Positions 1,608-59,370 are shown, numbered from the stretch's first letter. The stretch: 64,000 nucleotides of DNA from an uncultured Candidatus Saccharibacteria bacterium (GCA_964642305.1 CAZXOE010000002.1:50300-114299); one strand, 5' to 3'. Made by a program: numbers and translations. The notes: generated from the sequence alone by a model not told the origin.

Positions 1608-2057
1608 CTACTCTTTTTCTTGTGGTAATGCAAGCATTTTATATACCCTAAGCCCCAACACAAAAAGCGCAGTCGAAACTATCGCCGACAATATACAATA
1701 AATACAAAAAGCTCCGATTTTGAATTTTTGAACATAGATGAAGTAAACAGATGAGAGAAAGCCGAGCGTTGTTGCAATCGGGATAAGTTTTGCGACCAAA
1801 AGATTTTTCGTATCCATATAGAGAAGCACAAGGAAGCCGATACCGAGATAAAATATCACGCCCCATGCTGAAAGTGGAACGCCAAAAAGCACTGAGTGTG
1901 GAGACTTTGAAACTGTGTCGCAACCGCTCGTTATGAAGCAAGGAATCGGCGCGCCGGAAACGCGCTTTGCAAGCAAAAATGCGGAGTCGGTAAAACCAAT
2001 GAGCGCTAGTATCATAATCGCCCAGATAATCAAATTAGATATATTGTTGTTCGTCAT
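1608..2057 (-). CDS. VKOR-family (vitamin K epoxide reductase-like) thiol oxidoreductase
   Basis: Loop cysteine pair CFITSGC, then S..S..FG.P.S.WG, and a C-terminal membrane CIYC (CXXC) active site. It lies adjacent to a DsbA-like gene. Confidence 0.65.
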   Translation of the reverse strand: MTNNNISNLIIWAIMILALIGFTDSAFLLAKRVSGAPIPCFITSGCDTVSKSPHSVLFGVPLSAWGVIFYLGIGFLVLLYMDTKNLLVAKLIPIATTLGFLSSVYFIYVQKFKIGAFCIYCILSAIVSTALFVLGLRVYKMLALPQEKE

Positions 2058-2157
2058 GATTGTGCGTAGAAATTGTAGTGAATTTTTAGTGTTTATGCAT
2101 TTAATTTTTATTTAAAAATTTGAAATTTGAAATTAAAAATTCTTGTGCAAGACCCTC

Positions 2158-2811
2158 CTAGTGCGCAAGCGCATATTCAATAAGTGCTTTTAGTTCTTCT
2201 TTAGAACGAGGGTTGGTAGATTTTTTGCCATTAATGAAGAATGTCGGTGTTTGATTTACTTGGGAAAGTTTGCCACTTTGCAAGTCGCGCTCTACCTTTG
2301 CTTTTACTGTGTCACTTTTTACATCAGCCTTGTATTTAGCAATATCAAGACCAAGTTTCTCCGCGTAGCCCTCGAAAATTATTTGAGCGCTCACACTTTC
2401 CGACCAATCGTTCTGGTTTTTGAAAAGCATATCTGCCATTTCCCAGAACCTACCCTGAGCGCCTGCTGCTTCAGATGCGTATGAAGCAGGAAGCGCGTTT
2501 TTGTGTTGCTGAAGAGGGAAGTGACGGTAAGTAAAAGAGATTTTGTCTTTATACTCGGCAAACATTTCCTCAAGCATTGGATAGTATGAACCACAAGCAG
2601 GACACTGAAAGTCGCTGTACTCCGTGAATGTCATTTTTGGTGCTTTTGAGCCCTTTGTCCAGTCGGTCTCGTCCAAAGGAAGGCTCATTGTGCCGTCTTT
2701 GCGAGGGAGTTCCGCTTTGGGGCCTGTGGCTACTTGATACGCGCCAATTCCTGCAATTGCGACAACTAGCGCCGCCGAAACCCAAATAATAATTCTTTTC
2801 TGTGTATCCAT
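2158..2811 (-). CDS. DsbA-like thioredoxin-fold disulfide oxidoreductase
   Basis: N-terminal TM anchor and a CPAC active-site motif (FQCPACGSY). It is paired with the VKOR homolog, as in the known VKOR-DsbA systems. Confidence 0.7.
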   Translation of the reverse strand: MDTQKRIIIWVSAALVVAIAGIGAYQVATGPKAELPRKDGTMSLPLDETDWTKGSKAPKMTFTEYSDFQCPACGSYYPMLEEMFAEYKDKISFTYRHFPLQQHKNALPASYASEAAGAQGRFWEMADMLFKNQNDWSESVSAQIIFEGYAEKLGLDIAKYKADVKSDTVKAKVERDLQSGKLSQVNQTPTFFINGKKSTNPRSKEELKALIEYALAH

Positions 2812-2839
2812 AATAGGTGTATGGTAGCAGATATTTTGA

Positions 2840-2900
2840 GCCCCGCAAAGTGTAACCTATCCGAGGTCAGGACTTCGGATAGGTTACACTTTGCGGGGCA
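2840..2900. repeat. 62-bp perfect hairpin (25-bp stem) in a divergent promoter region
   Basis: gccccgcaaagtgtaacctatccga / tcggataggttacactttgcggggc with a ~10-nt loop, about 27 bp upstream of the DsbA-like start. Confidence 0.5.
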
Positions 2901-2948
2901 TGCCAGAAGCTCGCGCACAAGCTGGTTTTCGGGTAGAATGATGAAATA

Positions 2949-3073
2949 TGAATCCCGTTAGAGGTCGCACAGTTTTTGTAGAATGGTGAGAAACGACTAT
3001 ACTGATAGGTGATACATTATTAATGAATACTAATTAACTACGGAAATTTTTAATAATTTCCTACCTCTAACGG
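2949..3073 (+). mobile_element. MITE-like mini-element copy 1 (TIR CCCGTTAGAGGT...ACCTCTAACGGG), ORF-less
   Basis: 12-bp terminal inverted repeats at 2954-2965 and 3063-3074. 9-bp direct repeats GATGAAATA at 2940-2948 and 3074-3082. The right end abuts the pgi ATG. The ends are homologous to the copies at 20241 and 40210. Confidence 0.5.
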
Positions 3074-3074
3074 G

Positions 3075-4379
3075 ATGAAATACCAGGGACACATAAAAGA
3101 AGGAGAGCATATCACTGTGGACAATGCTCGCGTGGAGGAGTATGTCGCAAAAATGCGTCTTGCAATGAGCGACAAAGCTTATTCAACCCCAGAAGCATCT
3201 CTGAGGTTGCCCTTTGACGAGGAGCTTCTAAAAAAATCAAAAAACCTCGCAAGCAAACTCGCGGGGCCAAAGCTCACGTATATTTTAGATATTGGCATCG
3301 GGGGGTCAAACCTCGGCGCAAGGGCGCTCTATGAAGCAACCGCTGGAACTATGGACGCACACACGCCATTTGCGCCAAAAATGCTTTTTGCGGACACATG
3401 CTCACCGGAGCTTCTTTCAGATATCACGGAGCTTCTCTTGAATGAAATAGGTGACAAAGAAGAAATTATAATTATTGTCGCAAGTAAGTCTGGCACAACG
3501 ACAGAAACAATCACAAATGCATCTGTGCTTGTCAGCGCGCTTGAACAAAAATTCGGATCACTCACGGATCGCATTGTGTGCATTACGGATGAGAAGTCGC
3601 CACTTTGGATTATGGCGGAAGATCAAAAATTCCATTTGCTTCCAGTTCCAAAAAATGTAGGTGGACGTTTTTCTGTTTTCTCGCCAGCCGGAGTGTTTCC
3701 GCTTCTGTGTGCTGGTATCCCTGGAGATGCGCTTATGCGTGGAGCGCAGTCCGTTATTCACGACGCTATTGAGAGAGGAGTAGAAAGTAATTCTTTTAAA
3801 TTCGCAAAAGATATTATTTCATGGCACGAACAAGGTAGAATCGTGTTTGATTTTTTTGCGTTTCACCCAGAGCTTGAGTCTCTTGGAAAATGGTATCGTC
3901 AACTTTTTGCGGAAAGTACAGGGAAAGAAAAAACAATTGACGGCGCGCCTACAACGCACCGCATGGTGCCAACTGTATCCATAGGTTCCACCGACCTCCA
4001 TTCTGTTGAACAAATGAACCTTGCGCAACAGAATATCTCAGCGCGTTTTCTTGTTCGCGCGCATGCTCCGCACTGGGAGCACCAGTTTTTGGCAGAGGAT
4101 AAAGTGTTTGCCCCACTCGTGCCAGGTGTTTCTAGGCGCGCTCCATGTGAAATTCTTGATGCCATTTATAAAGGGGTCACTGAAACATACAAGGAACGAG
4201 GAGTTTCATATGGTGAGATTTTGCTAACTGATCTTGATCCAGAGTCGCTTGGAGCGCTTATGCAGTTTATGATGTGTACCACGATGCATCTTGCAAAACT
4301 GCTTAATATCAATGCATTTGACCAGCCAAACGTAGAGGCATACAAGGAGGCTACGAGGAGGATTTTGAGCGGGAAATAA
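3075..4379 (+). CDS. pgi: glucose-6-phosphate isomerase
   Basis: DIGIGGSNLG motif (the PGI GIGGS signature). 434 aa, PGI-like throughout. Confidence 0.75.
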   Translation: MKYQGHIKEGEHITVDNARVEEYVAKMRLAMSDKAYSTPEASLRLPFDEELLKKSKNLASKLAGPKLTYILDIGIGGSNLGARALYEATAGTMDAHTPFAPKMLFADTCSPELLSDITELLLNEIGDKEEIIIIVASKSGTTTETITNASVLVSALEQKFGSLTDRIVCITDEKSPLWIMAEDQKFHLLPVPKNVGGRFSVFSPAGVFPLLCAGIPGDALMRGAQSVIHDAIERGVESNSFKFAKDIISWHEQGRIVFDFFAFHPELESLGKWYRQLFAESTGKEKTIDGAPTTHRMVPTVSIGSTDLHSVEQMNLAQQNISARFLVRAHAPHWEHQFLAEDKVFAPLVPGVSRRAPCEILDAIYKGVTETYKERGVSYGEILLTDLDPESLGALMQFMMCTTMHLAKLLNINAFDQPNVEAYKEATRRILSGK

Positions 4380-4437
4380 TATGAAAACATTTGGGACAAT
4401 GGAACACAGGCGTGACAAGAATGCACAAGATTCCTAA

Positions 4438-4472
4438 AACGCACAATCGCTACGCGATTGTGCGTTTTCCTG
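4438..4472 (+). terminator. intrinsic terminator after pgi
   Basis: aacgcacaatcg-ctacg-cgattgtgcgtt followed by a T-run. Confidence 0.6.
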
Positions 4473-4500
4473 TTCCTTTTGCTTGCCAGGATATGGTACA

Positions 4501-4605
4501 CCCCCACACCTACTTTTACCTTGTTATTTTTAGCTCGGAATAGTTCAAATTACCAGATTGTTCAGTATGCTGAAAAAATCACTAGGCAAAAAGTAGGTGT
4601 GGGGG
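4501..4605. repeat. inverted-repeat element (17-bp arms CCCCCACACCTACTTTT, ~70-bp spacer) abutting a TACAAT -10 box
   Basis: Left arm 4501-4517. Right arm 4589-4605 is a perfect reverse complement, immediately followed by TACAAT and then the ATG at 4643. A second copy lies at 34026-34130. Confidence 0.5.
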
Positions 4606-4642
4606 TACAATATACCCATTAGTAACTATTAATATTTTATTT

Positions 4643-5053
4643 ATGAAGCACATTGGAAAATACGCAGGTGTACTCGCAATTCTTGCAATGCCGGCAATCA
4701 CTTTTGCCGAAGGTGGCTTGAATGGCACATTGCAAACATTAATTACCATCGAAGATAACTCAAAGATGTTTGAGATGATTTCGCTCTGGGCGACCCTTAT
4801 TGTTGCTTTTGCGACAAGCATGATGGTGTGGGTTGGTGGGAGACATATGCATGGCGGAGTTTTTGGAAGCGTGCTAACTTTTTTTAGTATCGGTATGACA
4901 CTCATATTTCTCGGGATTGCGACAGAGGTGCCGTGGCTTGAAAACTTTGACCAGCTCTATCTAAAGATGATTCACGACTCACTATATATTATAGGCTACA
5001 TACTTATGGGTGTTGCCGCAAGCAAGCTTCTAAAAGTTATTAAAGGCGAATAA
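4643..5053 (+). CDS. small membrane protein (signal peptide plus 3 TM), unknown function
   Basis: 136-aa ORF with a hydrophobic profile. Confidence 0.4.
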   Translation: MKHIGKYAGVLAILAMPAITFAEGGLNGTLQTLITIEDNSKMFEMISLWATLIVAFATSMMVWVGGRHMHGGVFGSVLTFFSIGMTLIFLGIATEVPWLENFDQLYLKMIHDSLYIIGYILMGVAASKLLKVIKGE

Positions 5054-44357: not shown

Positions 44358-44933
44358 CTATTTTTTGTCTATTCTTTCCGCATACGTCCCAGTTTCTGTA
44401 TTTACACGAATGAGATCTCCTTCATGAATAAACATCGGCACATTGATAGTCGCACCAGTCTCGAGGGTTACAGTATTTGAACCGCCAGACACGGTGTTGC
44501 CACGAACTGCTGGAGGAGCCTCACTTACAAGGAGCTCAACCTTAATAGGGAGCTTAACCCCAATAACCTTCTCATCAAAAAGCATTGCAGTAACGAGAGT
44601 GTTTGCTTTAAGAAATCCCTCCTTTCCGTCGAGAATTTCCGTCTTGAGGGCGAAGCGGTCTGATGGTTTCTTTGGATCGCAGAACCATGATTCGCCTTTG
44701 CCAGAGTAAAGATATTTGATTTCTTTTGTCTCGATATCAGCCTCCTCTGCTCGGTCTGATTGCTGAAAAGTCTCTTCCACAACACGCCCAGTAACGAGGT
44801 GTTTAAGTTTGGTCTGGTTGGTAGGGCGACGCTTTTGCTTCTGCGCAACGTGCGAGGACATAACTATGTACGGCTCGCCTTTCAAAACAATACACTTCCC
44901 GGGTTTAATTTCATTGTAATCAATAATTGCCAT
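44358..44933 (-). CDS. efp: elongation factor P (non-canonical modification loop)
   Basis: EF-P over its full length, but the loop reads VAQKQKRRPTNQTKL instead of VKPGKGQAFARVKL. Confidence 0.85.
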   Translation of the reverse strand: MAIIDYNEIKPGKCIVLKGEPYIVMSSHVAQKQKRRPTNQTKLKHLVTGRVVEETFQQSDRAEEADIETKEIKYLYSGKGESWFCDPKKPSDRFALKTEILDGKEGFLKANTLVTAMLFDEKVIGVKLPIKVELLVSEAPPAVRGNTVSGGSNTVTLETGATINVPMFIHEGDLIRVNTETGTYAERIDKK

Positions 44934-44971
44934 AATCTGCCTATTTTACTGGTTTTCAGAGAAATAGCAAA

Positions 44972-45997
44972 CTACTCCGCTTCTTTTAATTTCGCGCGGA
45001 TTTCCTTCAGAATGGAAGCGCGTACCACCTTATTCTCTTTGTCTGCAAGAAATATACACGCTGAATCATAACCGCGACCGATTTTTATATCGCCATAAGA
45101 GTATGAAGAGCCGGACTTCTGTAAAATCTCAAACTTTTCTCCGAGACCTAAAATCTCGCCTTCTTGTGAGATGCCTTTGCCGTGCATCAAGTCAAACTCC
45201 GCCTGTTTGAATGGCGCCGCAACTTTGTTCTTAATAACCTTTACGCGAGTGCGACTCCCCACCACTTCCTCTCCTTTTTTAATCTGCGCAATACGACGAA
45301 TATCCAAGCGCACTGATGTATAAAACTTAAGCGCCTTACCTCCCGGCGTTGTTTCCGGGTTTCCAAACATCACACCTATTTGCATACGAATTTGATTTAT
45401 AAAAATAACAATTGTTTTAGAATTGGCAACTATTGCGGTGAGCTTGCGAAGCGCCTGTGACATTAAACGCGCCTGCTTGCCAACATGATGCGCGCCCATA
45501 TCTCCCTCAATCTCGTCTTTTGGAGTGAGAGCCGCTACAGAGTCTACAACAATGACGTCAATTTTTCCTGATCGCACAAGGCTCTCCACTATCTCAAGCG
45601 CTTGCTCTCCTGTGTCTGGCTGAGAAATGAGAAGTTCATCAATATTTACTCCGAGCTTTTTTGCATACTCCGGATCCATAGCGTGCTCTGCATCAACAAA
45701 CGCGCAGATGCCACCCATTTTTTGCGCTTCAGCAACGACATGAAGAGTGAGCGTCGTCTTCCCAGAAGACTCTGGCCCAAAAATTTCAACGATACGTCCG
45801 CGTGGGAGACCACCAACACCAAGTGCGTAGTCCAAACCAATGGACCCGGTTGAGATAGCATCCACCCCAACTTTTGGCTTGTCGCCGAGCTTCATAATCG
45901 CGCCTTCGCCAAACTTTGCCTGGATCGATCTTATTGTATCCTCAATGTTTCCACCAATCTCTTTTTTTTCCTTTGCTGGTTTTTTTGCTAATGCCAT
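44972..45997 (-). CDS. recA: recombinase RecA
   Basis: GPESSGKTT Walker A; canonical RecA sequence throughout. Confidence 0.95.
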
Positions 45998-46127
45998 GGT
46001 TGATTTTTAAGGAGCATAGCGACTATAAAAATCACCACCCCGTTAAATAATTTCGCTTTGCGAAATTCCTGCTCTGCAGGATTTAACCGGGGTAAATAAC
46101 CCTAGTGTCACCTCGTCCTTTATGTTA

Positions 46128-46601
46128 TTAAAAATTATTAATCGTGCCCGATGCCTGCCCCGTAGGAAGTAGGCCTTTTGTGTCCGTTAGTTGTTCCAGC
46201 GGGGTCGTCGTTGCAGAAATTGTTCCCTCTGTTCTTCCCGTTCTCTCAGTTGCCCCTGTTCCCACCAAGTTCATCTCTATCGTTTTCTCAACAGTTCTCT
46301 CGTAATTATCTTTTGCGGTAACCCTAATTATATTATACCCAGGAGCGAGTATCAATTGAGCGCGAAAGTTACCAGCTAGATCAACAGGCGTCTGAGTGCC
46401 GTTTATTGAGAGGTTATTTGTATGGATACCGCGACCAATGACTACAATTGCGGGTGTTGTCGTTGAATACCCATTTAGGGGACTTTCAATGATAATTCTC
46501 GGGCCACGAATATAGTCATTCAGGACAAAATATGAATAGCCAATCACTATTATTGTTCCAAGTATTGCGAATGTCCGTTTTAGTATTGTTCTGCCGTCCA
46601 T
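46128..46601 (-). CDS. membrane-anchored hypothetical protein
   Basis: 157-aa ORF with an N-terminal TM. No motif recognised. Confidence 0.35.
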   Translation of the reverse strand: MDGRTILKRTFAILGTIIVIGYSYFVLNDYIRGPRIIIESPLNGYSTTTPAIVVIGRGIHTNNLSINGTQTPVDLAGNFRAQLILAPGYNIIRVTAKDNYERTVEKTIEMNLVGTGATERTGRTEGTISATTTPLEQLTDTKGLLPTGQASGTINNF

Positions 46602-46635
46602 GTGTTTATCGAGGGGAAATACGATGCCTAATGCG

Positions 46636-46693
46636 TCTTTGCGAGTACTCGAAGCAATCTACAGGTTCTGGATTGCTTCGAGTACTCGCAAAG
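46636..46693. repeat. 58-bp hairpin (23-bp stem) at the 3' end of ftsK, member of a dispersed repeat family
   Basis: tctttgcgagtactcgaagcaatc-tacaggttctg-gattgcttcgagtactcgcaaaga. It shares CGAAGCAATCTACRGGTT with 41925-41945. Confidence 0.6.
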
Positions 46694-46708
46694 ACCAGGT
46701 GGCGAGTC

Positions 46709-49018
46709 TTACACATCAGTCGCGCCCCCCGCCTTCTCAATCACCTCGCGCGCCTTCGCTCCATCCCCTGGCCCAATGACACCTCGCTCCTCAAGCATAT
46801 CAATTAGTCGAGCGGCGCGCGCGTAGCCCACCTTGAGGCGTCTTTGGAGATACGAAGTAGACGCTTTTCCTGCCTCAATAATTATCGCGCGCGCATCCTC
46901 ATACAAGTCATCATCATCGTTGCCATCACCCTCCTCCTCAAATGACGAGCTAAATATAGAATCACGTTCGTTGCTAATGCTTCCGGACGACAAATTTATT
47001 TCATCTGTGTCTGGCAGACCGTCGGTCGGCATATTAGCCAAATACTTTACAACTGTCTTCACCTCTGTTTCCGACATAAAGGCCGACTGAATACGGGTGG
47101 GCTTGGACATTTCACCAGATATATAGAGCATATCACCAGCACCAAGAAGCTTCTCAGCTCCAGATGCGTCCAAAATAGTACGAGAGTCAATTTGTGATGA
47201 CACTTGCAGAGCCACACGCGCAGGTACGTTTGCCTTGATGAGGCCCGTGATGACATTCACAGACGGACGTTGTGTTGAGAGAATGAGGTGAATACCCACC
47301 GCGCGACTCATTTGCGCTAGGCGCACAATAGCGCTTTCAAGCTCACGAGGGTATGCCTGCATAATATCCGCAAGTTCGTCCAGGATGATGACAATATAAG
47401 GCATACGCTCCGGCATTCCTGCGTCTGCGCTCCCACCCAGTTCTTCCTTTTCCCCTCGTGCACCCTTGTTCTTCTCGTTCTTCTTGAGCGCAACTTCAAG
47501 CACGTTTTTATGATACGAAGAAATGTCACGCACAGACTCCGCTTCAAGTACATTATAACGGCGGTCCATTTCTTTTGCCGCCCACTTAAGCGCGAGAATT
47601 GCTTTTTTCGCGTCTGTAATTACTGGTGTAAGCAAATGGGGGATTTTGTTGTAGAGAGTAAGTTCAACACGCTTTGGGTCTATCATAATAAAACGCATCG
47701 CTTCCGGTCCATTTCTAAAAAGTAAAGAGTTTACAACTGCATGAATTGTTACAGATTTTCCAGAACCAGTCGCGCCGGCGATTAGCACGTGAGGCATTTT
47801 TGCCAGGTCCGCATAGTAGAGCTTCCCAGAAACACCACGTCCGAGTGCCACAAGAAGAGGCTTTGCAGAATTACGATATTCGTCCGAAGAAAAGAGTGTC
47901 TTGAGACCAACAACAGTTTTTGTGGAGTTTGGTACTTCAATGCCCACGAGCGACTGCCCTGGGATAGGCGCTTCTATACGAATAGGGTGAGCAGCGAGCG
48001 CGTACGAGAGCTCGTTTTGAAGTCCAACGATGCGCGCGAGCTTCACACCTTCTGCTGGTTTCAACGCGTAGCGTGTGACAGACGGCCCGATAGAAACCTC
48101 GTCCATTTCAACAGTGATACCGTACTGCGCGAGTGTTCGTTTTATGATGTTTGCATTTGCTTTAATGTCTCCGACACCTGGCTTGCCACGGTCTCCTTCA
48201 AGTATCGAAAGCGGTGGGGGAACATATGTTGTGTTCATCACTTGGTTCATTGAAATACCCGACTCGTCTGCTGGCGTGATATCCTTTTTGATCTTTGCGA
48301 TGACCTGAGCTATCTTCGCAGGCTTTTCTTCTTCCTCAGTTTCTTCTTTTTTTACTTCATCATTATTTGTTTGTATCGCTACTTCCTCGTCAACGTATTC
48401 ATCCTCACCATCTTTCTTTCTCCAGAAAAGCAGAGTGCTAAAATCTGGCTTCGCATTAAACATCACAAGGAATGATATAGAAAGAAATGCAATTAGAAAT
48501 AATGTCGCTATATAAGTATCAAAAAGTTTAACAAGCGGAGAAGAAACAATTTGCCCTAGTATTCCTCCAGACATATCTCCTGAAAATATATTCACAAGAC
48601 CAAGCATAGAAAAAAGAAAAAGAAACGCGCCTATGCTCGCGGTAACAGCAATATTCGGTCGTGACTCGCGGAAAAAAGAAATACCAAGAAGAAATAGTAG
48701 GAGAGGGAGAGCAAAGTATCCGACACCCAAAAGATATTCAAATCCGTTGTAGACTTTTCCACCAAGTAACCCCGCATAGCCCCAAGGAGCGACAGAGAAA
48801 AAGATTCCAACTACAAAAAATAAAATCGCTATTACACTATGGCGTATCTCGTCAGAAAGTCCACCAAGGAAAGAGATACCTCTAAACAAAGAAGCTCCTT
48901 CATTAGAACCTTTGATTATTTTTTTAGGAACCTTTTCGTCATTCTTTCTACGCCCATTCTTTTCTTTCTTTGCCATATGAGTATTGATATATAGTAACAG
49001 ATAAAAACATTCCTCCAA
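46709..49018 (-). CDS. ftsK: DNA translocase FtsK/SpoIIIE
   Basis: N-terminal TM block, Walker A GATGSGKS, and a C-terminal gamma winged helix (YARAARLIDMLEERGVIG). Confidence 0.85.
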   Translation of the reverse strand: MEECFYLLLYINTHMAKKEKNGRRKNDEKVPKKIIKGSNEGASLFRGISFLGGLSDEIRHSVIAILFFVVGIFFSVAPWGYAGLLGGKVYNGFEYLLGVGYFALPLLLFLLGISFFRESRPNIAVTASIGAFLFLFSMLGLVNIFSGDMSGGILGQIVSSPLVKLFDTYIATLFLIAFLSISFLVMFNAKPDFSTLLFWRKKDGEDEYVDEEVAIQTNNDEVKKEETEEEEKPAKIAQVIAKIKKDITPADESGISMNQVMNTTYVPPPLSILEGDRGKPGVGDIKANANIIKRTLAQYGITVEMDEVSIGPSVTRYALKPAEGVKLARIVGLQNELSYALAAHPIRIEAPIPGQSLVGIEVPNSTKTVVGLKTLFSSDEYRNSAKPLLVALGRGVSGKLYYADLAKMPHVLIAGATGSGKSVTIHAVVNSLLFRNGPEAMRFIMIDPKRVELTLYNKIPHLLTPVITDAKKAILALKWAAKEMDRRYNVLEAESVRDISSYHKNVLEVALKKNEKNKGARGEKEELGGSADAGMPERMPYIVIILDELADIMQAYPRELESAIVRLAQMSRAVGIHLILSTQRPSVNVITGLIKANVPARVALQVSSQIDSRTILDASGAEKLLGAGDMLYISGEMSKPTRIQSAFMSETEVKTVVKYLANMPTDGLPDTDEINLSSGSISNERDSIFSSSFEEEGDGNDDDDLYEDARAIIIEAGKASTSYLQRRLKVGYARAARLIDMLEERGVIGPGDGAKAREVIEKAGGATDV

Positions 49019-49030
49019 AGCCTATATTTT

Positions 49031-49180
49031 CTAATGGACACTGGCAATCATTGACTTTTCTCAAATGTCCGTTATATAATGGACAAACATTACGAAGTTC
49101 GAGATAAAGGACATATTCTAAAAAAAGCACGAAATAAAGGACACCTTAAAGACACACAATGGACTACAATAAGGACATCA
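49031..49180 (+). promoter_or_regulatory. promoter (TTGACT-18-TATAAT) with a periodic array of AAGGACA / ATGGACA repeats
   Basis: GGACA cores at 49036, 49081, 49109, 49139 and 49173, spaced ~28-45 bp, spanning the -10 box, the leader and the first codons. Confidence 0.45.
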
Positions 49181-50031
49181 AAGACAATAGGCTCGTGAGC
49201 CATACACCGACCAACGGAGCGCTTGTTTTTGGTGCTACTATTTCAAAAAAGTGTGAGCGCCTTGCTACCGCAATTTACCTCGTTACCAATTTTCTATCGG
49301 ACACAGAGCCGATGAAGCCCCGCCTTCGCTCTCTCTCGCTAGAGCTTGTCCGAGACGCGTCTCTCGTGAAAAACGGGAGTCAGGCAATGGAGGCAAATGT
49401 CCTTGAAGCGCTCCGCGCGAATATTCTTGAAACACTTTCTTTGTTTGAACTCGCATTTATTGCAGGCTTAGTATCCGAGATGAACTTCACTATTTTGAAG
49501 AGGGAATACGTTTCGCTTAGGGACATGATTGAGGTGAAAAAAGCATCTCGCGAGTCGCATACAGACAGCATCCTTGGTGACAACTTTTTCAGCGTATCGA
49601 ACCCAGAGCCCCTAAGGTCAGACCTTAAGAATTTGAGCCCAAGGTCGGACCTTTATGCATCCTCAGCAACCCGCACCCCCGCCTCCCCTAAAGGACATTC
49701 TATAGGACAAACAGTTATCACAATGTCCGATAGAAACACAAAAGGACAATCCGTTTTAGTGCATCCGTCTTTGCGAGGAGGTACTCCGACGCGGCAATCC
49801 AGCACCCCATCATCCACTCCCCGCGCAATCACAGATGTAGCAAAAGAATCTCGCCGGTCACGCATTTTAAAACTTGTAAAAGACAATCGTGAAGTTACCA
49901 TAAAGGACATTGCAAATCATTTTGCGGACTTATCAGAAAAGACAATTCAGCGTGAACTTATGTCCTTTGTAGAACGCGGTGTCCTTAAGAAATTTGGAGA
50001 ACGTCGCTGGTCACGTTATTCATTAGCATAG
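49159..50031 (+). CDS. hypothetical protein with a C-terminal winged-helix (DeoR-like) DNA-binding domain
   Basis: C-terminus RILKLVKDNREVTIKDIANHFADLSEKTIQREL. Low-complexity S/T/P-rich middle. Confidence 0.4.
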   Translation: MDYNKDIKDNRLVSHTPTNGALVFGATISKKCERLATAIYLVTNFLSDTEPMKPRLRSLSLELVRDASLVKNGSQAMEANVLEALRANILETLSLFELAFIAGLVSEMNFTILKREYVSLRDMIEVKKASRESHTDSILGDNFFSVSNPEPLRSDLKNLSPRSDLYASSATRTPASPKGHSIGQTVITMSDRNTKGQSVLVHPSLRGGTPTRQSSTPSSTPRAITDVAKESRRSRILKLVKDNREVTIKDIANHFADLSEKTIQRELMSFVERGVLKKFGERRWSRYSLA

Positions 50032-50040
50032 CGGATATAA

Positions 50041-50107
50041 TAAGGCCCGGCCTCGGATACCAGAGCATAACCAAGGCCCGGCCTCGGGTACTCTCGAGGC
50101 CGGGCCT
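50041..50107. repeat. REP-like GC-rich palindromic doublet (AAGGCCCGGCCTCG...)
   Basis: aaggcccggcctcgg ... aaggcccggcctcgggtactctcgaggccgggcctt. Related to the palindromes flanking RAYT #2. Confidence 0.6.
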
Positions 50108-50869
50108 TATTATCCACACCTTACTCTCATCACCACTTGCTTGTTTCTTGCCCCATTTTCTGCTATTATATACCCGTGTGGAGAGGTTGGTAAGTATCGT
50201 TAAATGTGTCTGCATTCCGCATCCACTTTCAACTTCGAATCAGCTGATTCGTGGCTCGGCCATGAAAACTTTCAAGCGACTAGTTTGGAAGTTATCCACA
50301 CATATACTTTGCAGGTTAATCTTGCACCGTATATAATGTATGTAAGTTCAGTGCGTAGATTAATTTCTGCGTTACTGAATTTAGGCGTAGTGAATGTGTC
50401 CGCACATTTGCGCGTCATTAAAATAGAAACTCCCGGCTTACGATAGATTGCAAGCAAGGGGAGAGTCCATTGAAAACTAGGTCCGTTGCGAAAAGATATT
50501 CGCTGTATCCAAGGACTGCCATTGGGTACCCTCAAGGGCAGTCCTTGGATATCTTCTCGCACCGGATCTTGCATAGAAAACATATCTCACAATTAGGTAT
50601 GTTCTCATTGTTTGCTCGCATCTGCATTCTTGTCAGTTGCGAATCAGCTGATTCGTGTCTTGGACATAAAATTGTCCAGGTCAGTTGTCAGATGTATTTG
50701 CAAAGCAAATTTCTATGGCCTCGATCCGTGTGGTCGAAGCACTACCGCATGACCGACAAAACGACAGAATAAAAAAAGTTCACTTAATTAAAGTGTGCAC
50801 GAAAACCTTCCTCAACTGCAAAGACGAAGAGGGAGCACACTGTGCGATTAGAAACATATCAATTTATTT

Positions 50870-53800
50870 ATGACTACAATTATTTCATCAAAGTCTGCAA
50901 AAATTACTGCAGGTTTGGTAGGACTTATTGCTGGTGTTGCAATGTTTGCAATCACAGCTCAAGCCGCTACATTTACAACAAACCTAAAGCAAGGCAGCAC
51001 AGGTGCTGATGTAAAGAACCTTCAAATGGTTTTGAACATGAGCGCTGACACACAGGTTTCAGTATCAGGTGCAGGTTCACCTGGTAACGAAACTTCATAC
51101 TTCGGTCCTGCAACAAAGGCCGCAGTTGTAAAGTTTCAGAATAAGTACGCATCAGAGATTCTTGCGCCAGTTGGTTTGACCAGCGGTACAGGATACGTTG
51201 GTGCGTCAACACGCGCAAAGTTGAACACAATGGAAGGAGGTTCAACAACAAGCATGGTTCCTGGTTGTACTTCAACAGTTGGCTTTAGCCCAACAACAGG
51301 AGCTTCATGTGCTTCAGGAGTAGTGACAACAACTACTTTAGTTCCTGGTTGTACTTCAACAGTTGGCTTTAGCCCAACAACAGGAGCATCATGTGCAACA
51401 GGTGCTGTAACAGCATCAGGTCCAGTATCAGCATCACTTGCAAACGACAACCCTGCAGCATCTGCAGTTATTGCCGGACAAGCAACTGCTGATCTTCTCC
51501 ATGTTGCTTTCACAGGTAACGGTACAATCACCAACGTTAAGTTGATGCGTACTGGTATCTCAGCAAACACAACTCTTTCAAACGTTTACCTATACAATGG
51601 TAACACTCGTTTGTCTGACGCTGCTTCGGTGAACAACACAGATAGCACAATCAGTTTCAACGGTCTTAACCTTTCAGTTAATGGCTCACTTACACTTTCA
51701 GTGAAGGCTGACATCGCAGCAGGTACTGCAGGTCAGATTGTTGGTGTAAATCTTATTGGTTACACAACATCAGGTAGCGGAGAGACAACTGCAAATATTT
51801 CAGGTAACTACATGAATATTGCATCAGCACCATCAACAATGACTGCTGCTACTGCAGCTGCAAACACTGTAGGTTCTACCGCAACAGTAAACGCTGGAAC
51901 AACCGGCTTTACATTCTGGTCATCTCCAGTAACTGTAACAAACCGCCTCGGTCTTCTTACAGGAGCTAACTTCAGATACGTTGGATCAGCTCCCGCAGAT
52001 GCACTTGAGAATATTCGCCTTTACGTGAACGGTGTTGCAGCAGGCGCTACAGGTGTTTTGAACACATCAACGAACCTTGTTTCGTTTGATTTTGCTTCAA
52101 GCCCAGTAACATTGAACACCGGTGCTTCAACAATTGATGTTCGCGCTGACGTTGTAAAGGGCTCAAATCGTACAATTACGATTTCTCTTGCAAACGCTGC
52201 CGACCTCATGATCCGTGATTCACAGCTTGGTGTAAACGTTGCAGTAACAAACAACAGTTCAACAGGAACTACTGTTACTATTAACCCAGGTTCAGTTACA
52301 GCATCCGTAGACTCAACATACAATGCAACAACAGTGGCAGGCGGTACAACCGGCGCTATTGTAGGGCAGTACACATTGAAGGCTTACGGTGAAGATGTAA
52401 AGGTAGACACACTTAAGGTTACTTTTGCTACAACTTCAGCTATAACAACACTTGACAACGTTGCGCTTTACGCAAACGGTGTACAGGTAGGTTCATCAGC
52501 AAACTTCCTCGGAACAGCTGCTCTAACCTTCACTTTGGGCTCATCTCTTATCCTTCCAGCCAATACAACTGTAACTCTTACAGTTAAGGCTGATATGATA
52601 GACAGTACAGGGTCTGCATACACATCAGGTACAGTAGCTACAGTACTTGGAGGTGTTGCAAGCAATGCGCAAGGACAGAGCTCATTTGAAACTCTTTCAG
52701 TAGCAAGTACTGCTATCACAGGCAACACTCTTACTGTAGGAGCTAGCGCAGGTACGTTTGTTCGAACCTCAGGTTTCGTAACATCAACATCCTCACCTAA
52801 TACACAGAATGTAAAGATTGGATCGTTTACGCTCCAAGCTGGATCAACTGAAAGTATTAGTGTAACAAGTATTGGTGTTAAGCCTACATTAGGTGGATAC
52901 AACGGTGGTACAGCAAACGCTATTACCAACTACAGTACACTTACTGTTAAGAATGGTTCAACAGTTCTTGGAACTCCAGTTGGTAACCCAGCTGCAGCAA
53001 CATCAACGTTCTCATTCAGTGGTATCAACATTCCTATTAACGGATCAGTTACATTTGATGTATACGCCGACATTGGAGGCGCAGCATCATCAACAGCAAA
53101 TCCTACTATCACTGCAGACATGGCGGTAACATACCGAGGTGCTGTAAGCAACACAACAACAACCTCAGCAGCTGCTGGCGTTGCTATTGCTTCAGCTTCT
53201 GCTACTTTGGCGGCTCCAACATTGGTGTCATCATCAGCAGTTGCGCAGTATGTAGTAGGTGGTTCATCATTCGGTATTGCAACCTTTAAGTTGTCAACAG
53301 CCGCACAGGGAACATCAGCTACAGTTAACAAGCTTGCGTTCGCAACTACAGGACAGGATGCTATTGTAAGCATTACTGTAGGTGGCGTTACACAGGCGGT
53401 AACAGGATCAGGTGCCTCAGCAACAACAACAATCTCAGGTCTTAACATCAATGTTCCTTACACAGGTGTTGATGTGCCTGTAACCGTTAAGTTCTCTGGT
53501 TTCCTCGGTTCAACAACAGGTGGTTCACTTTCATCTGGTATTGCTTCAACACTCGTAACACTTAGTTACGTAGAAGGAACATCAGGTACAGGTGCAGCTA
53601 TCACTTCTTACTCACCTGTGTCTTCAAACACAATGATGTTGTACGCCTCAAAGCCTACGGTTTCAGGGCCTTCATCATCATCAGGTATCCTTTCATCAGG
53701 TGTACAGAAGATCGGAGAGTTCACAGTTGCGGCTGACACCAACGGCAAGATTGCTGTTGCGACAACCTCAATTACGTTCTCAACATCAACAACTGGAACA

Positions 53801-54124
53801 ATTAACGTAACAGACGTTAAGCTTTCAGATGACGGTGGTTCTACAGCAATTGCAAACTCAAACACTGTCGCTGCACCACTTTCTGGAACAGCATTCACAA
53901 TTGGGTTTACAACACCTTACGAAATCTCAGCAGGTACTTCAAAGACCTTCTCGATTTACGCTAACGTGACTGGTGCATACGGAGCATCTGGAGTAACCTC
54001 ACTTTCAACCGCGCTTACCTCTGCTGCAACATTCCTTTGGAATGATGTAACTACAGGTTCAACTGGTTTGACAGGAACAGGTATTCAGAACTTTGGTGTA
54101 GGTGCATACACTCTTAGAAACTAG
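50870..54124 (+). CDS. cell-surface protein: N-terminal TM, peptidoglycan-binding domain, two Cys-pair repeats, long Ser/Thr/Gly/Ala-rich beta-rich region
   Basis: The N-terminal ~110 aa are paralogous to the 7126 protein (LKQGSTGADVKNLQMVLN...YFGPATKAAVVKFQNKY). Confidence 0.6.
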   Translation: MTTIISSKSAKITAGLVGLIAGVAMFAITAQAATFTTNLKQGSTGADVKNLQMVLNMSADTQVSVSGAGSPGNETSYFGPATKAAVVKFQNKYASEILAPVGLTSGTGYVGASTRAKLNTMEGGSTTSMVPGCTSTVGFSPTTGASCASGVVTTTTLVPGCTSTVGFSPTTGASCATGAVTASGPVSASLANDNPAASAVIAGQATADLLHVAFTGNGTITNVKLMRTGISANTTLSNVYLYNGNTRLSDAASVNNTDSTISFNGLNLSVNGSLTLSVKADIAAGTAGQIVGVNLIGYTTSGSGETTANISGNYMNIASAPSTMTAATAAANTVGSTATVNAGTTGFTFWSSPVTVTNRLGLLTGANFRYVGSAPADALENIRLYVNGVAAGATGVLNTSTNLVSFDFASSPVTLNTGASTIDVRADVVKGSNRTITISLANAADLMIRDSQLGVNVAVTNNSSTGTTVTINPGSVTASVDSTYNATTVAGGTTGAIVGQYTLKAYGEDVKVDTLKVTFATTSAITTLDNVALYANGVQVGSSANFLGTAALTFTLGSSLILPANTTVTLTVKADMIDSTGSAYTSGTVATVLGGVASNAQGQSSFETLSVASTAITGNTLTVGASAGTFVRTSGFVTSTSSPNTQNVKIGSFTLQAGSTESISVTSIGVKPTLGGYNGGTANAITNYSTLTVKNGSTVLGTPVGNPAAATSTFSFSGINIPINGSVTFDVYADIGGAASSTANPTITADMAVTYRGAVSNTTTTSAAAGVAIASASATLAAPTLVSSSAVAQYVVGGSSFGIATFKLSTAAQGTSATVNKLAFATTGQDAIVSITVGGVTQAVTGSGASATTTISGLNINVPYTGVDVPVTVKFSGFLGSTTGGSLSSGIASTLVTLSYVEGTSGTGAAITSYSPVSSNTMMLYASKPTVSGPSSSSGILSSGVQKIGEFTVAADTNGKIAVATTSITFSTSTTGTINVTDVKLSDDGGSTAIANSNTVAAPLSGTAFTIGFTTPYEISAGTSKTFSIYANVTGAYGASGVTSLSTALTSAATFLWNDVTTGSTGLTGTGIQNFGVGAYTLRN

Positions 54125-54318
54125 TTTTACTAGGGACTAAGTAACAACGAAAAGAGTCTTAGTCTCAAATTAGGTCAATGCGTCGCTTCAGAGAAATTAT
54201 CTCGAACGAGCTAAACCCAAAACGAAACTAACCTCCCTGCCCGCCACTGCCTGTCGCTCCTGAATTAGCAAATTCACGTCTTGGACGCAAATGAGCAGTT
54301 AGGCGATGGCAGGCGGGA

Positions 54319-54357
54319 ATTCAGAAAAAGACCCCTTTCTCTTACGAGAAAGGGGTC
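54319..54357 (+). terminator. intrinsic terminator
   Basis: gacccctttctc-ttac-gagaaaggggtc with flanking A and T runs. Confidence 0.6.
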
Positions 54358-54375
54358 TTTTTCGTGCTCAAATCC

Positions 54376-54411
54376 CCAAGCTCCCCAAGGCCCGGCCTAT
54401 GTACATAGGCC
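54376..54411. repeat. 36-bp perfect palindrome CCAAGGCCCGGCCTATGTACATAGGCCGGGCCTTGG (REP-like, left of RAYT #2)
   Basis: Read directly; identical to 55109-55144. Confidence 0.85.
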
Positions 54412-54434
54412 GGGCCTTGGTATATAATACAAGC

Positions 54435-55088
54435 ATGAGGAAGCTCAATTTTTCTATTCATGAATACTACCATCTCTACAGTCGTGGTACCGACAAACGT
54501 ATTATATTTAGCGATGAAGAAGACAAGCAAAGATTTTTACATCTCTTGTATCTCTGTAATACTGACAGCAGTCTAATATTTAGAGAGATACCCATAGGCC
54601 GGGCCTATGAAGAGAGAAAAGGAGATACTTTGGTTAATATTGGAGCATATTGCATGATGCCAAATCACTTCCACCTACTTGTTAGAGAGAAGAAGGATGG
54701 TGGAATCACGAAATTTATGGGTAAATTACTAACATCGTATTCAATGTACTTTAACAAGAAATATAAGCGTACTGGGACTTTGTTTGAGAGTAGATTTAAG
54801 GCAAAGCATGCTAATGATGATAAATACTTGAAGTATTTATTTGCTTATATTCATCTAAACCCAGTTAAGATTATTGATCCAAAATGGAAGGAAAATGGGA
54901 TTAAGGATCGAGATAGTGCTGAGGAATATCTAGAAAGTTATCAATATTCGAGTTACGCGGATTACGTAGGCGACCATCGTAAGGAGAGCAACATCCTTAA
55001 TAAGCGAGTGTTTCCAGAGTATTTTTCAAAGCAGCAGGAATTTAAAGAATTCATAAAAGAGTGGCTATCCTATGGCAATATAGTGTAG
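54435..55088 (+). CDS. IS200-like Y1 (HUH) transposase / REP-associated tyrosine transposase (RAYT)
   Basis: HUH motif MPNHFHLLV and a Tyr region YIHLNPVK. The TATATAATACAAGC promoter is fused to the ATG. The ORF track's upstream extension is discounted. Confidence 0.7.
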   Translation: MRKLNFSIHEYYHLYSRGTDKRIIFSDEEDKQRFLHLLYLCNTDSSLIFREIPIGRAYEERKGDTLVNIGAYCMMPNHFHLLVREKKDGGITKFMGKLLTSYSMYFNKKYKRTGTLFESRFKAKHANDDKYLKYLFAYIHLNPVKIIDPKWKENGIKDRDSAEEYLESYQYSSYADYVGDHRKESNILNKRVFPEYFSKQQEFKEFIKEWLSYGNIV

Positions 55089-59326: not shown

Positions 59327-59370
59327 CCCCATAGGTCCGACCTCTGTCTACAGAGGTCGGACCTATGGGG
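59327..59370. repeat. 44-bp perfect palindrome (CCCCATAGGTCCGACCTCTGT|AGACAGAGGTCGGACCTATGGGG), REP-like / terminator
   Basis: Read directly. The half-site is related to CATAGGCCGGGCC of the RAYT palindromes. Confidence 0.7.

What the first reader, a model, noticed from the sequence alone, without database searches (positions are those of the whole stretch)
49031..50031. Iteron-like AAGGACA array in the promoter, leader and coding region of a winged-helix gene
GGACA cores, mostly as (A/T)AAGGACA, occur at 49036, 49081, 49109, 49139, 49161 and 49173 with ~28-45-bp spacing across the TTGACT-18-TATAAT promoter and 5' UTR. At least six more AAGGACA/TGTCCTT occur inside the 873-bp CDS. About 0.1 would be expected by chance. 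The protein ends in a DeoR-like wHTH. Autoregulatory operator sites or replication-initiator iterons are both possible. The next 800 bp (50040-50870) are non-coding and contain two DnaA boxes.
Basis: seen in the sequence. Interest (0 to 1): 0.5.

Follow-up and report, generated by a model that had tools for sequence, protein, structure and literature searches.

The report
Regulator gene studded with own operators
A small DNA-binding regulator gene found throughout one large group of ultra-small (CPR/Paceibacteria) bacteria carries about twenty copies of one 9-base site (TAAARGACA) over its promoter, leader and entire coding sequence, so densely that the sites have shaped its codons; this is most likely extreme self-repression, not a replication origin.

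Summary
GGACA occurs 17 times in 49000-50040 (16/kb against 1.75/kb elsewhere). The true site is a 9-mer, T-A-A-A-(G/A)-G-A-C-A, on both strands and in all codon frames. It is not a quirk of this genome. In 80 homologous loci (30-71% protein identity) the gene and its upstream region carry 4-16 GGACA/kb against 1.1/kb in the flanks. Coding regions hold 506 sites against 218 after synonymous shuffling. An inverted pair brackets the -10 box (TGTCC-gtTATATAAT-GGACA), further sites fill the leader, and the rest run to the stop codon with no fixed spacing.

The protein has an N-terminal four-helix bundle whose best structural matches are the pentameric Avd/23S-IVS proteins. A roughly 80-aa disordered linker joins it to an invariant C-terminal DeoR-type winged helix. 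The best reading is a multivalent autorepressor that also sits beside the divergent ftsK-recA operon.

The origin or iteron reading is not supported. Synteny is chromosomal and conserved, there is no skew switch, no Rep or DnaA gene was found, and site spacing is irregular. The two "DnaA boxes" belong to a conserved promoter element (59 of 70 loci) for the next transcription unit. The same sites also mark a second locus (cca/xth) in metagenomes. Binding by this protein is inferred, not shown.

The parts
46709..48976 (-). ftsK (755 aa), first gene of the divergent operon ftsK / small membrane protein (46128-46601) / recA (44972-45997)
   Evidence: Pfam FtsK_SpoIIIE 7.6e-60, FtsK_gamma, FtsK_alpha; RecA 4e-138. 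Divergent ftsK neighbour in 80 of 81 loci.
49032..49040 (+). Site TAATGGACA just upstream of the -35 box, between the two divergent promoters
   Evidence: PWM 14.0 bits.
49051..49080 (+). Promoter of the regulator gene: TTGACT - 18 nt - TATAAT
   Evidence: 11 of 12 match. The same -35/-10 with flanking sites is seen in L001, L002, L003, L004, L006, L009, L010, L023, L048, L050.
49066..49085 (.). Inverted pair of sites bracketing the -10 box: TGTCCgtTATATAATGGACA (core operator)
   Evidence: Palindrome I7. PWM 15.9 and 15.6 bits. Minus-strand upstream sites peak at -100..-80 over 81 loci.
49105..49154 (+). Three direct sites in the 5' leader (TAAAGGACA 49105, TAAAGGACA 49135, TTAAAGACA 49146); in close relatives the last one doubles as the Shine-Dalgarno sequence
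49159..50031 (+). Regulator gene, 290 aa: N-tail 1-16, four-helix bundle 17-141, disordered linker 146-222, DeoR-type wHTH 222-286
49169..49186 (+). Two sites in codons 4-10 (ATAAGGACA, TCAAAGACA), translated as NKDIKD
   Evidence: The N-tail has 17.6 GGACA/kb over 81 genes.
49295..49525 (.). Weaker sites in the four-helix-bundle coding part (49295+, 49347-, 49398-, 49517+)
   Evidence: N-domain density is 4.3/kb, 2.1 times the synonymous-shuffle expectation.
49689..49748 (.). Cluster of four sites in the linker (TAAAGGACA 49689+, TATAGGACA 49701+, TATCGGACA 49724-, AAAAGGACA 49740+). They encode the only conserved islands of the linker, KGHSIGQ...MSDRNTKGQ
   Evidence: Linker density is 12.1/kb, 2.5 times shuffle.
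49877..49988 (.). Five sites in the wHTH coding part (49877+, 49901+, 49936+, 49961-, 49980-), encoded as VKDN, IKDI, EKTI, MSF, GVLK
   Evidence: wHTH density is 7.1/kb, 3.0 times shuffle. GTC is used for Val in 44 of 50 [GN]VL[KED] against 23% elsewhere.
49615..49652 (.). Two 11-bp palindromes AGGTCNGACCT inside the linker (translated RSDL...RSDL); not part of the TAAARGACA array
   Evidence: Four in the window against 0.04 expected; the other two form the hairpin at 59333-59364. Present only in close relatives.
50037..50113 (+). Nested GC-rich inverted repeats after the stop codon (terminator-like)
   Evidence: I1 19-nt arms 100% complementary; I6 14-nt arms.
50110..50118 (+). First TTATCCACA box, abutting the terminator hairpin
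50292..50337 (+). Next promoter: AGTTATCCACA-N7-TTTGCA(G)-18-TATAAT. This is the conserved 'DnaA-box' promoter module of the downstream unit
   Evidence: 10 of 12. Box in this gap in 59 of 70 loci, 1.33/kb against 0.027/kb. Aligned contexts.
50338..50869 (+). About 530-nt untranslated leader (or separate RNA) ahead of the 1084-aa PG_binding_1 surface protein gene (50870-54124); 5' hairpin at 50343-50383
   Evidence: Conserved blocks in 10 close loci. Hairpin with compensatory changes. No Rfam match.

Best explanation
The array is a dense set of operator sites for the product of the gene that carries it. The protein belongs to a Paceibacteria-wide, uncharacterised family. Each winged-helix domain is proposed to read one asymmetric 9-bp site: GGACA/AGACA in the major groove and the A/T tract TAAA beside it.

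The N-terminal four-helix bundle, whose best structural matches are homopentamers, is proposed to join several chains. The roughly 80-residue disordered linker would then let the DNA-binding domains reach sites of any spacing and orientation. When protein accumulates, the inverted pair around the -10 box and the leader sites would exclude RNA polymerase or block early elongation. The sites across the coding sequence would raise local avidity through looping and bridging, and may act as roadblocks or as a cis sink. The result would be tight, cooperative negative autoregulation.

The upstream site between the divergent promoters would couple this to the ftsK-recA operon. The same factor also has other targets, namely the cca gene body and a promoter beside cca/xth in related metagenomic genomes.

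Shown here: the sites, their family-wide conservation, selection on them at the DNA level, the promoter geometry and the domain architecture. Inferred: that this protein is the binder, its oligomeric state, and that the regulation is negative.
For: (1) Local enrichment of 9-69 fold, unique within 64 kb.
(2) Conserved across 80 loci from GTDB species genomes at 30-71% protein identity: 4-16 GGACA/kb over gene plus upstream against 1.1/kb in the flanks. GGACA is the top enriched 5-mer in most loci.
(3) DNA-level selection. There are 506 coding sites against 218 after synonymous shuffles, with 54 of 81 genes at z>2. Every gene region shows a 1.8-3.0 fold excess. Sites fall in 5 of 6 frame/orientation classes with the same T(-4)AAA flank. 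Codon choice follows the site: AAA-GGA in 67 of 76 KG[HQ] (GGA 31% elsewhere), GAC in 175 of 204 KD[INKT] (44% elsewhere), GTC in 44 of 50 [GN]VL[KED] (23% elsewhere).
(4) Operator geometry. TGTCC-gtTATATAAT-GGACA spans the -10 box in many loci, with direct sites down to the SD/ATG.
(5) At a second locus the same 9-mers lie on the -35 hexamer (TGTCC[TTTACA]) and the spacer of another promoter, which is repressor-type placement.
(6) The wHTH is the most conserved part of the family (SEKTIQRE, LKKxGERRWS invariant), matching an invariant site.
(8) A regulator placed divergently to the operon it controls is a common bacterial arrangement (general knowledge). ftsK is the divergent neighbour in 80 of 81 loci.
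Against: There are no binding data. The assignment of the site to this protein rests on 'the TF gene with the densest cluster is the binder'.

The wHTH does not vary, so protein-site covariation could not be tested.

The N-domain has no sequence-level match to PF05635. Four-helix bundles are common, so the pentamer is only an analogy.

The sense-strand bias (342:164 in coding sequence, 146:44 upstream) is not predicted by orientation-free binding.

More than ten gene-body sites is far beyond what known looping repressors use, so their role is unexplained.

Only 64 kb of this genome and 4-kb flanks of the others were visible, so the size of the regulon is unknown.
Confidence: 0.62

Rival explanations
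1. The sites are operators, but for another, unidentified DNA-binding protein. This gene would be only its most heavily controlled target, along with cca and the neighbouring promoter, rather than the binder.
For: The same 9-mers occur at the cca/xth loci, next to the TTATCCACA element, so a broader regulon exists. No covariation or binding evidence ties the site to this wHTH.
Against: Across 80 loci the array always travels with this gene and stops at its borders: flank GGACA copies show no TAAA context. 16 of 120 random metagenomic double-site hits fall exactly on a family member. The family's invariant wHTH matches an invariant site. Autoregulation is the commonest reason for a transcription-factor gene to carry the top cluster of a motif.
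Confidence: 0.15
2. The array is a centromere-like or nucleoid-organising platform, in the manner of ParB-parS. The protein would nucleate on its own gene beside ftsK to mark a chromosomal position for segregation or translocation, with transcriptional effects secondary.
For: Binding sites lie inside the binder's own gene, as with parS in spo0J/parB (general knowledge). There are many sites and a probable multivalent protein. ftsK adjacency is invariant. No other strong site occurs in 64 kb.
Against: There are no ParB, CTPase or ATPase partner domains. The sites sit precisely on the -10 and -35 promoter elements here and at the second locus. The second locus (cca/xth) is a separate place in those genomes.
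Confidence: 0.08
3. The element acts at the RNA level. UAAAGGACA repeats in the mRNA would be bound by the protein (Avd-like and some winged-helix domains bind RNA) or by the ribosome's anti-SD (AAAGGA), giving translational autoregulation or pausing.
Against: A third of the sites are antisense with the same extended consensus: T(-4) is 68-90% in the minus classes. The best-conserved pair includes an arm upstream of the -10 box, which is not transcribed. At the second locus the sites flank and cover promoter elements in both orientations. The C-A after GGA and the T at -4 do not match the anti-SD.
Confidence: 0.07
4. This is an iteron-type replication origin with its initiator gene, with the DnaA boxes and non-coding DNA downstream as the unwinding region.
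For: Repeated sites lie inside a winged-helix protein's own gene, as in RepA_N plasmids (general knowledge). Two perfect TTATCCACA boxes lie within 830 non-coding bases.
Against: Spacing is irregular and orientations are mixed, and no tandem family was found. There is no Rep or DnaA domain, and no DnaA signature in any frame of the window. Chromosomal synteny is conserved in 66-80 of 81 loci. Cumulative GC skew rises on both sides; the dip at 44-54 kb partly follows the minus-strand efp-recA-ftsK genes (44358-48976) but continues through plus-strand DNA to 54 kb, and is flanked by rising skew on both sides. TTATCCACA occurs 8 times in the window, mostly 20-45 nt upstream of -10 boxes, and at a fixed place in a promoter in 59 of 70 loci.
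Confidence: 0.02

Closest known systems
Looping autorepressors with auxiliary operators inside coding DNA (lac O2 in lacZ, gal OI in galE, E. coli DeoR with three operators)
   Same: The primary operator overlaps core promoter elements. Extra sites lie within transcribed or coding DNA. A multimeric repressor bridges the sites.
   Different: Those systems use 2-3 palindromic operators. Here there are about 20 asymmetric 9-bp sites spread over the regulator's own entire coding sequence. They are conserved as a density rather than as fixed positions, and they constrain codon and residue choice.
DeoR-family regulators (Pfam PF08220 HTH_DeoR + PF00455 DeoRC)
   Same: The winged helix scores above the Pfam threshold for HTH_DeoR, with a similar recognition-helix signature (SEKTIQREL against the family's S..TIRRDL, the latter from memory).
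   Different: The domain is C-terminal rather than N-terminal. There is no DeoRC sugar-phosphate domain. The partner domain is a four-helix bundle.
Avd / '23S rRNA intervening-sequence' four-helix-bundle proteins (PF05635; PDB 2gsc, 2rld, 4dwl, 8ub7)
   Different: No sequence-profile match was found. Those proteins are single-domain and, for Avd, bind reverse transcriptase and RNA. None is known to be fused to a winged helix.
RepA_N-type plasmid replicons (origin iterons inside repA) and ParB-parS (parS inside parB/spo0J)
   Same: Binding sites for a DNA-binding protein lie inside its own coding sequence.
   Different: Here there are no Rep or ParB domains and no regular iteron register or 16-bp palindrome. 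The gene is chromosomal, syntenic and housekeeping-linked, and the sites sit on promoter hexamers.
MraZ (arrays of short direct repeats upstream of the division-gene cluster)
   Same: Short asymmetric repeats are read by an oligomer, and a division gene (ftsK here) neighbours the array.
   Different: The fold is unrelated. MraZ repeats have fixed 10-bp phasing and lie only upstream of the operon.

Membership tests
DeoR family transcriptional regulators | HTH_DeoR winged helix (PF08220) | tested here: met
   24.4 bits against a cut-off of 21, aa 232-278; 60 of 60 family members match.
DeoR family transcriptional regulators | HTH at the N-terminus followed by a C-terminal DeoRC effector/oligomerisation domain (PF00455) | tested here: not met
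   The HTH is C-terminal. No DeoRC hit even at E<=10 in 60 members. The N-domain is a four-helix bundle.
Iteron-regulated replicon / replication origin | Tandem direct repeats of constant length and register | tested here: not met
   Adjacent-site spacing is broad (9-45 bp), with mixed orientation. Repeat finder gives only 2-3-copy short families.
Iteron-regulated replicon / replication origin | Initiator of a Rep family (or DnaA) encoded at the site | tested here: not met
   Pfam and NCBIfam give HTH hits only. No DnaA motif in six frames of the window.
Iteron-regulated replicon / replication origin | GC-skew switch / replichore boundary at the locus | tested here: not met
   Cumulative skew rises before 44 kb and after 54 kb; the dip between partly follows the minus-strand efp-recA-ftsK genes (44358-48976) but continues through plus-strand DNA to 54 kb.
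Iteron-regulated replicon / replication origin | DnaA-box cluster specific to the locus | tested here: not met
   8 perfect boxes are scattered in the window, 6 of them intergenic and promoter-proximal. There is a single box at a fixed promoter position in 59 of 70 loci.
ParB-parS partition systems | ParB N-terminal/CTPase domain and palindromic 16-bp parS | tested here: not met
   No ParB-family hit. The site is an asymmetric 9-mer.
PF05635 / Avd four-helix-bundle proteins | Four-helix bundle of this topology | tested here: met
PF05635 / Avd four-helix-bundle proteins | Sequence-profile membership | tested here: not met
   No PF05635 hit at E<=10 in 60 members. hmmsearch of PDB sequences gives 0 hits at E<=10.
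PF05635 / Avd four-helix-bundle proteins | Homopentameric assembly | not testable with these tools
   Only monomer prediction is available. The pentamer is known for Avd (PMC6182149) and is suggested by the five chains A-E listed for 2gsc and 2rld.
Autoregulated repressor (functional class) | Sites overlapping the core promoter of its own gene, conserved across orthologues | tested here: met
   The inverted pair around the -10 box is conserved in many loci. Upstream density is 11.5/kb over 81 loci.
Autoregulated repressor (functional class) | Specific binding of the gene product to those sites | not testable with these tools
   Needs EMSA, DAP-seq or ChIP.

The most novel reading that the evidence does not exclude
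A lineage-wide transcription factor of a new architecture (Avd-like multimerisation hub, long disordered tethers, C-terminal winged helices) coats its own gene from promoter to stop codon. The gene body serves as a multivalent binding platform (roadblock, loop anchor or cis-acting sink). This requirement has written the operator into the protein: the disordered N-tail and linker are largely 'translated operators' (KDI, KGH/KGQ, MSD, VLK). The same factor, together with the promoter-proximal TTATCCACA element, would control cca and other core genes in Paceibacteria, making it one of the few global regulators of these reduced genomes.
Probability: 0.3. Interest if true: 0.75.

Novelty: new variant of a known kind. 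Interest (0 to 1): 0.55.

Why it matters
CPR/Patescibacteria have very few recognisable regulators, and almost nothing is known about how they control transcription. This work gives a concrete, testable cis-element (TAAARGACA) and a candidate trans-factor present in at least 562 species-level genomes. It also gives a promoter grammar (the TTATCCACA upstream element) and two target loci linked to chromosome handling and repair (ftsK-recA, xth) and to tRNA maturation (cca). More generally, it is a clear case where regulatory DNA embedded in a coding sequence visibly dictates codon and amino-acid usage across a whole clade. It also suggests that a multivalent hub-and-tether repressor can use an entire gene body as its operator.

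Tried and rejected
(1) Origin or iteron reading. It was rejected on skew, absence of dnaA or Rep, irregular spacing, conserved synteny and the promoter role of the DnaA boxes.

(2) 'Amino-acid conservation explains the internal copies'. This was rejected by synonymous shuffles, frame analysis and codon usage.

(3) A genome-wide abundant word. This was rejected because the flanks sit at or below chance and lack the TAAA context.

(4) Known RNA families in 48900-51000 or in the whole window: none at gathering score, and only noise at E<=10.

(5) Sequence homology of the N-domain to PF05635 or to any PDB chain: none. Only fold similarity was found.

(6) Literature searches for a described Patescibacteria regulator or motif returned nothing relevant.

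(8) Protein-site covariation could not be tried, because the wHTH is invariant in every locus retrieved.

(9) The identity of the transcript driven by the cca/xth-side promoter is unresolved. There is no Rfam family and no evident sequence conservation on visual comparison of nine loci (no alignment was run).

Full report
**1. The observation.**
The region was read directly.
- AAGGACA occurs 21 times in the window on both strands, and nine of these lie between 49107 and 49986. Shuffles give 9.7 for the whole 64 kb.
- The pentamer GGACA occurs 17 times in 49000-50040, which is 16.3/kb. The rest of the window has 1.75/kb, about the chance level for a 5-mer on two strands.
- Aligning the 17 copies shows a longer unit, T-A-A-A-G-G-A-C-A, in both orientations. 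Inside the ORF it falls in all three codon phases.
- AAAGACA variants with the same flank also occur. With the definition "RGACA preceded by at least 3 of 4 of TAAA", the 1.05-kb locus has 16 sites and the other 63 kb has 14.
- A weight matrix built only from other genomes puts all ten hits of at least 14 bits in the window inside 49030-49990.
- The promoter TTGACT-18-TATAAT (49051-49080) matches 11 of 12 positions.
- Two details of the finding need correction. The position 49161 is GGACT, the start codon context. An antisense site at 49066-49074 was overlooked; with 49077-49085 it forms TGTCCgtTATATAATGGACA, an inverted pair bracketing the -10 box (I7).

**2. The gene and its protein.**
ORF 49159-50031 encodes 290 aa with a C-terminal HTH_DeoR winged helix (PF08220, 24.4 bits, aa 232-278). 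Nothing else is recognisable in Pfam or NCBIfam.
- It has 1286 database relatives. All are from Parcubacteria/Patescibacteria (Yonathbacteria, Nomurabacteria, Paceibacterota), named "hypothetical" or "DeoR family".
- Alignments show an invariant wHTH (SEKTIQRE, LKKxGERRWS), a conserved N-terminal domain, and a variable linker. The only conserved islands in the linker are KGHSIGQ and MSDRNTKG(H/Q).
- AlphaFold2 on a 60-sequence alignment gives a four-helix bundle (17-141, pLDDT above 90), a disordered linker (146-222) and the wHTH (222-286).
- Avd is a pentameric barrel (PMC6182149).
- There is no sequence-level link to PF05635 or to any PDB chain. The relationship is therefore "looks like", not membership.

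**3. The array is a property of the family.**
Eighty loci were fetched from GTDB species genomes, at 30-71% protein identity.
- In nearly all of them GGACA is 4-16/kb over the gene plus 300 nt upstream, against about 1.1/kb in the flanks. It is usually the most enriched 5-mer, and AGACA/AAGAC is often next.
- Over 81 genes there are 506 coding-region copies against 218 after shuffling synonymous codons within each gene. 54 of 81 genes have z>2.
- The 200 nt upstream hold 190 copies, 11.5/kb.
- The flank T(-4)A(-3)A(-2)A(-1) is present at upstream and coding sites (T at -4: 83% and 73%) but not at GGACA copies in the flanks (29%).
- Every part of the gene is enriched: N-tail 17.6/kb, linker 12.1/kb, wHTH 7.1/kb and N-domain 4.3/kb. 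Each is 1.8-3.0 times its synonymous expectation.
- Sites occupy five of the six frame/orientation classes, translated as KG(H/Q), KD(I/N/K), (K/S)RT, MS(D/F) or (G/N)VLK.
- Codon choice is decisive. KG[HQ] is AAA-GGA in 67 of 76 cases, while GGA is 31% of other Gly codons. Asp in KD[INKT] is GAC in 175 of 204 cases against 44% elsewhere. Val in [GN]VL[KED] is GTC in 44 of 50 against 23%.
- Positions turn over between lineages. Density is what is conserved, and it is highest where the protein is least constrained.
- The N-terminal tails of distant members (MDYKKDIKD, MNNQKDTQ, MDNQGHQKD...) read like translated sites.

**4. Geometry.**
Upstream regions of diverse loci share one plan. It runs TTGACTTT-N-CAAA-TGTCC-GTTATATAAT-GGACA, then two to four sense-oriented (A/T)TAAAGGACA copies, the last usually 7-8 nt before the ATG, where AAAGGA is the Shine-Dalgarno sequence.
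- Minus-strand copies upstream concentrate at -100..-80, the promoter. Plus-strand copies fill -140..-1.
- Adjacent sites are 9-45 bp apart with no dominant register, in ++, +-, -+ and -- combinations.
- This is repressor-type placement over the -10 box plus a loose cloud of monomer sites. It is not an iteron array.

**5. Context.**
Synteny is strongly conserved.
- recA, a small membrane protein and ftsK lie on the opposite strand, with ftsK divergent in 80 of 81 loci.
- Downstream, after a 200-1480-bp gap, lies a large PG_binding_1 surface protein in 70 loci.
- The site at 49032-49040 lies between the divergent promoters.
- The window has no dnaA signature, no tRNA, and no cca or xth.
- Cumulative GC skew rises on both sides of the locus. 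The dip at 44-54 kb partly coincides with the minus-strand efp-recA-ftsK genes (44358-48976), but it continues to 54 kb through plus-strand DNA, so gene strand does not fully account for it.

**6. The "DnaA boxes".**
Perfect TTATCCACA occurs eight times in the window, against about 0.5 expected.
- Six copies are intergenic, in the orientation of the downstream gene. Several of these directly follow a GC-rich hairpin, and they lie about 20-45 nt before a TATAAT-like box.
- In the gap downstream of the regulator gene a box is present in 59 of 70 loci. There are 62 boxes in all, 1.33/kb against 0.027/kb elsewhere, and most of these loci have exactly one.
- The box always sits in the module (G)AGTTATCCACA-N4-9-TTTGCAG-N16-18-TATAAT. 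In the window this is 50292-50337.
- The boxes therefore mark the promoter of the next transcription unit, not an origin.
- That unit begins with a long leader of about 530 nt here. It has blocks conserved among the ten closest loci and a 5'-terminal hairpin with compensatory changes. No Rfam family matches.

**7. Other targets.**
- Sixteen hits lie exactly on a family member.
- Seventeen contigs carry cca and thirteen carry xth.
- At these loci two to eight sense-oriented sites sit in cca near residues 140-150. L119 has an eight-site insertion, translated as ...KGHSNNSKGHFNSENVLYKILKDKNFYKGH....
- An intergenic promoter beside cca/xth reads TAAAGGACA-c-TTATCCACA-N3-4-TGTCC[TTTACA]-N2-4-TGTCCTTTA-...TATAAT. 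The sites cover the -35 hexamer and the spacer.
- The 9-mer is thus an operator used at more than one promoter. The combination of gene-body and promoter sites recurs.
- What that promoter transcribes is unknown.

**8. Interpretation.**
The simplest model joins these facts.
- The invariant winged helix reads one asymmetric 9-bp site.
- The Avd-like bundle multimerises.
- The long disordered linker lets several DNA-binding domains of one particle reach sites of any spacing and orientation.
- Occupancy of the -10-flanking pair and the leader shuts the promoter. The gene-body sites add avidity through loops or bridges, or act as roadblocks or a cis sink.
- The steps not shown are that this protein is the binder, its stoichiometry, and the sign of regulation.

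The rivals are set out above. They are another binder, a centromere-like platform, an RNA-level element and an origin. The origin reading is contradicted on every testable point. The sense-strand bias and the sheer number of gene-body sites remain unexplained by the standard repressor picture. That is where a new mechanism could lie.

**9. Novelty and score.**
Autoregulatory operators and intragenic auxiliary operators are known. New here are three things:
- an uncharacterised, clade-wide regulator architecture;
- an operator array that spans the regulator's whole coding sequence and is conserved as a density;
- visible imprinting of the operator on codon and residue choice.

I rate it a new variant of a known kind, with interest 0.55.

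Noticed in passing
window 23503, 32706, 50110, 50292, 55153, 56994(-), 59388, 62600; L001-L080 downstream gaps: The perfect DnaA-box 9-mer TTATCCACA is a promoter-proximal element in this lineage. It occurs 8 times in 64 kb (about 0.5 expected), mostly 20-45 nt upstream of a -10 box. It sits at a fixed place, (G)AGTTATCCACA-N4-9-TTTGCAG-N17-TATAAT, in 59 of 70 homologous gaps. Whether DnaA or another factor reads it is unknown.
   Followed up: partly
window 50338-50869 (hairpin 50343-50383; conserved blocks about 50430-50485 and 50711-50776): A roughly 530-nt untranslated leader, or separate RNA, lies between the regulator gene and the 1084-aa surface-protein gene. Blocks are 75-95% conserved in the ten closest loci, and a 5'-terminal stem-loop shows compensatory changes. 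No Rfam family matches. A long gap (200-1480 bp) is conserved in 70 loci.
   Followed up: partly
L116 7287-7342; L128 374-442; L139 2043-2080; L141 8619-8663; L149 10423-10484; L172 8340-8380; L102 1366-1396: A second operator locus occurs in related metagenomic genomes. A promoter beside cca/xth has TAAAGGACA sites flanking the TTATCCACA box and covering the -35 (TGTCC[TTTACA]) and the spacer. The RNA it drives is unidentified and runs convergent to cca or xth.
   Followed up: partly
L119 2606-2740 (in cca, 2052-3788) and 4097-4308 (upstream of rpsO, 4356-4667); L143 3675-3716; L139 3140-3172: CCA-adding enzyme genes carry 2-8 sense-oriented TAAAGGACA sites at the same position (about aa 140-150). 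In L119 this is an eight-site insertion translated as KGH/KD-rich filler. L119 also has a nine-site cluster upstream of rpsO.
   Followed up: partly
window 49615-49625, 49642-49652 (and 59333-59364): The 11-bp palindrome AGGTCNGACCT occurs four times in the window (0.04 expected). Two copies lie inside the regulator's linker (translated RSDL...RSDL) and two form an intergenic hairpin. Linker copies are found only in the closest relatives (L003, L004, L006, L057). They are possibly small hairpin elements tolerated by the disordered linker.
   Followed up: partly
window 50229-50267 and 50633-50671: A 39-nt direct repeat (82% identity, 404 bp apart) occurs in the downstream non-coding region, the second copy within the predicted leader. 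Each copy holds the perfect 16-bp palindrome CGAATCAGCTGATTCG. A similar GAATCAGCTGATTC occurs in L003's leader. Its function is unknown.
   Followed up: no
window 50506-50551: A 19-bp-arm hairpin (TATCCAAGGACTGCC...GGCAGTCCTTGGATA) in the leader contains AAGGACT/AGTCCTT. This is one base off the operator core and has no TAAA flank. The equivalent position in L012 and L001 holds a different hairpin.
   Followed up: no
window 44358-48976 and 50870-54124; L001-L080: The gene order recA - small Glucodextran_B-like membrane protein - ftsK | regulator | long gap | PG_binding_1 surface protein is conserved in 66-80 of 81 Paceibacteria loci. efp was annotated next to recA (44358-44933) in the window only and was not tested in the other loci.
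   Followed up: yes
window 54306-55088: An IS200-like Y1 transposase (PF01797) lies directly downstream of the surface-protein gene.
   Followed up: no
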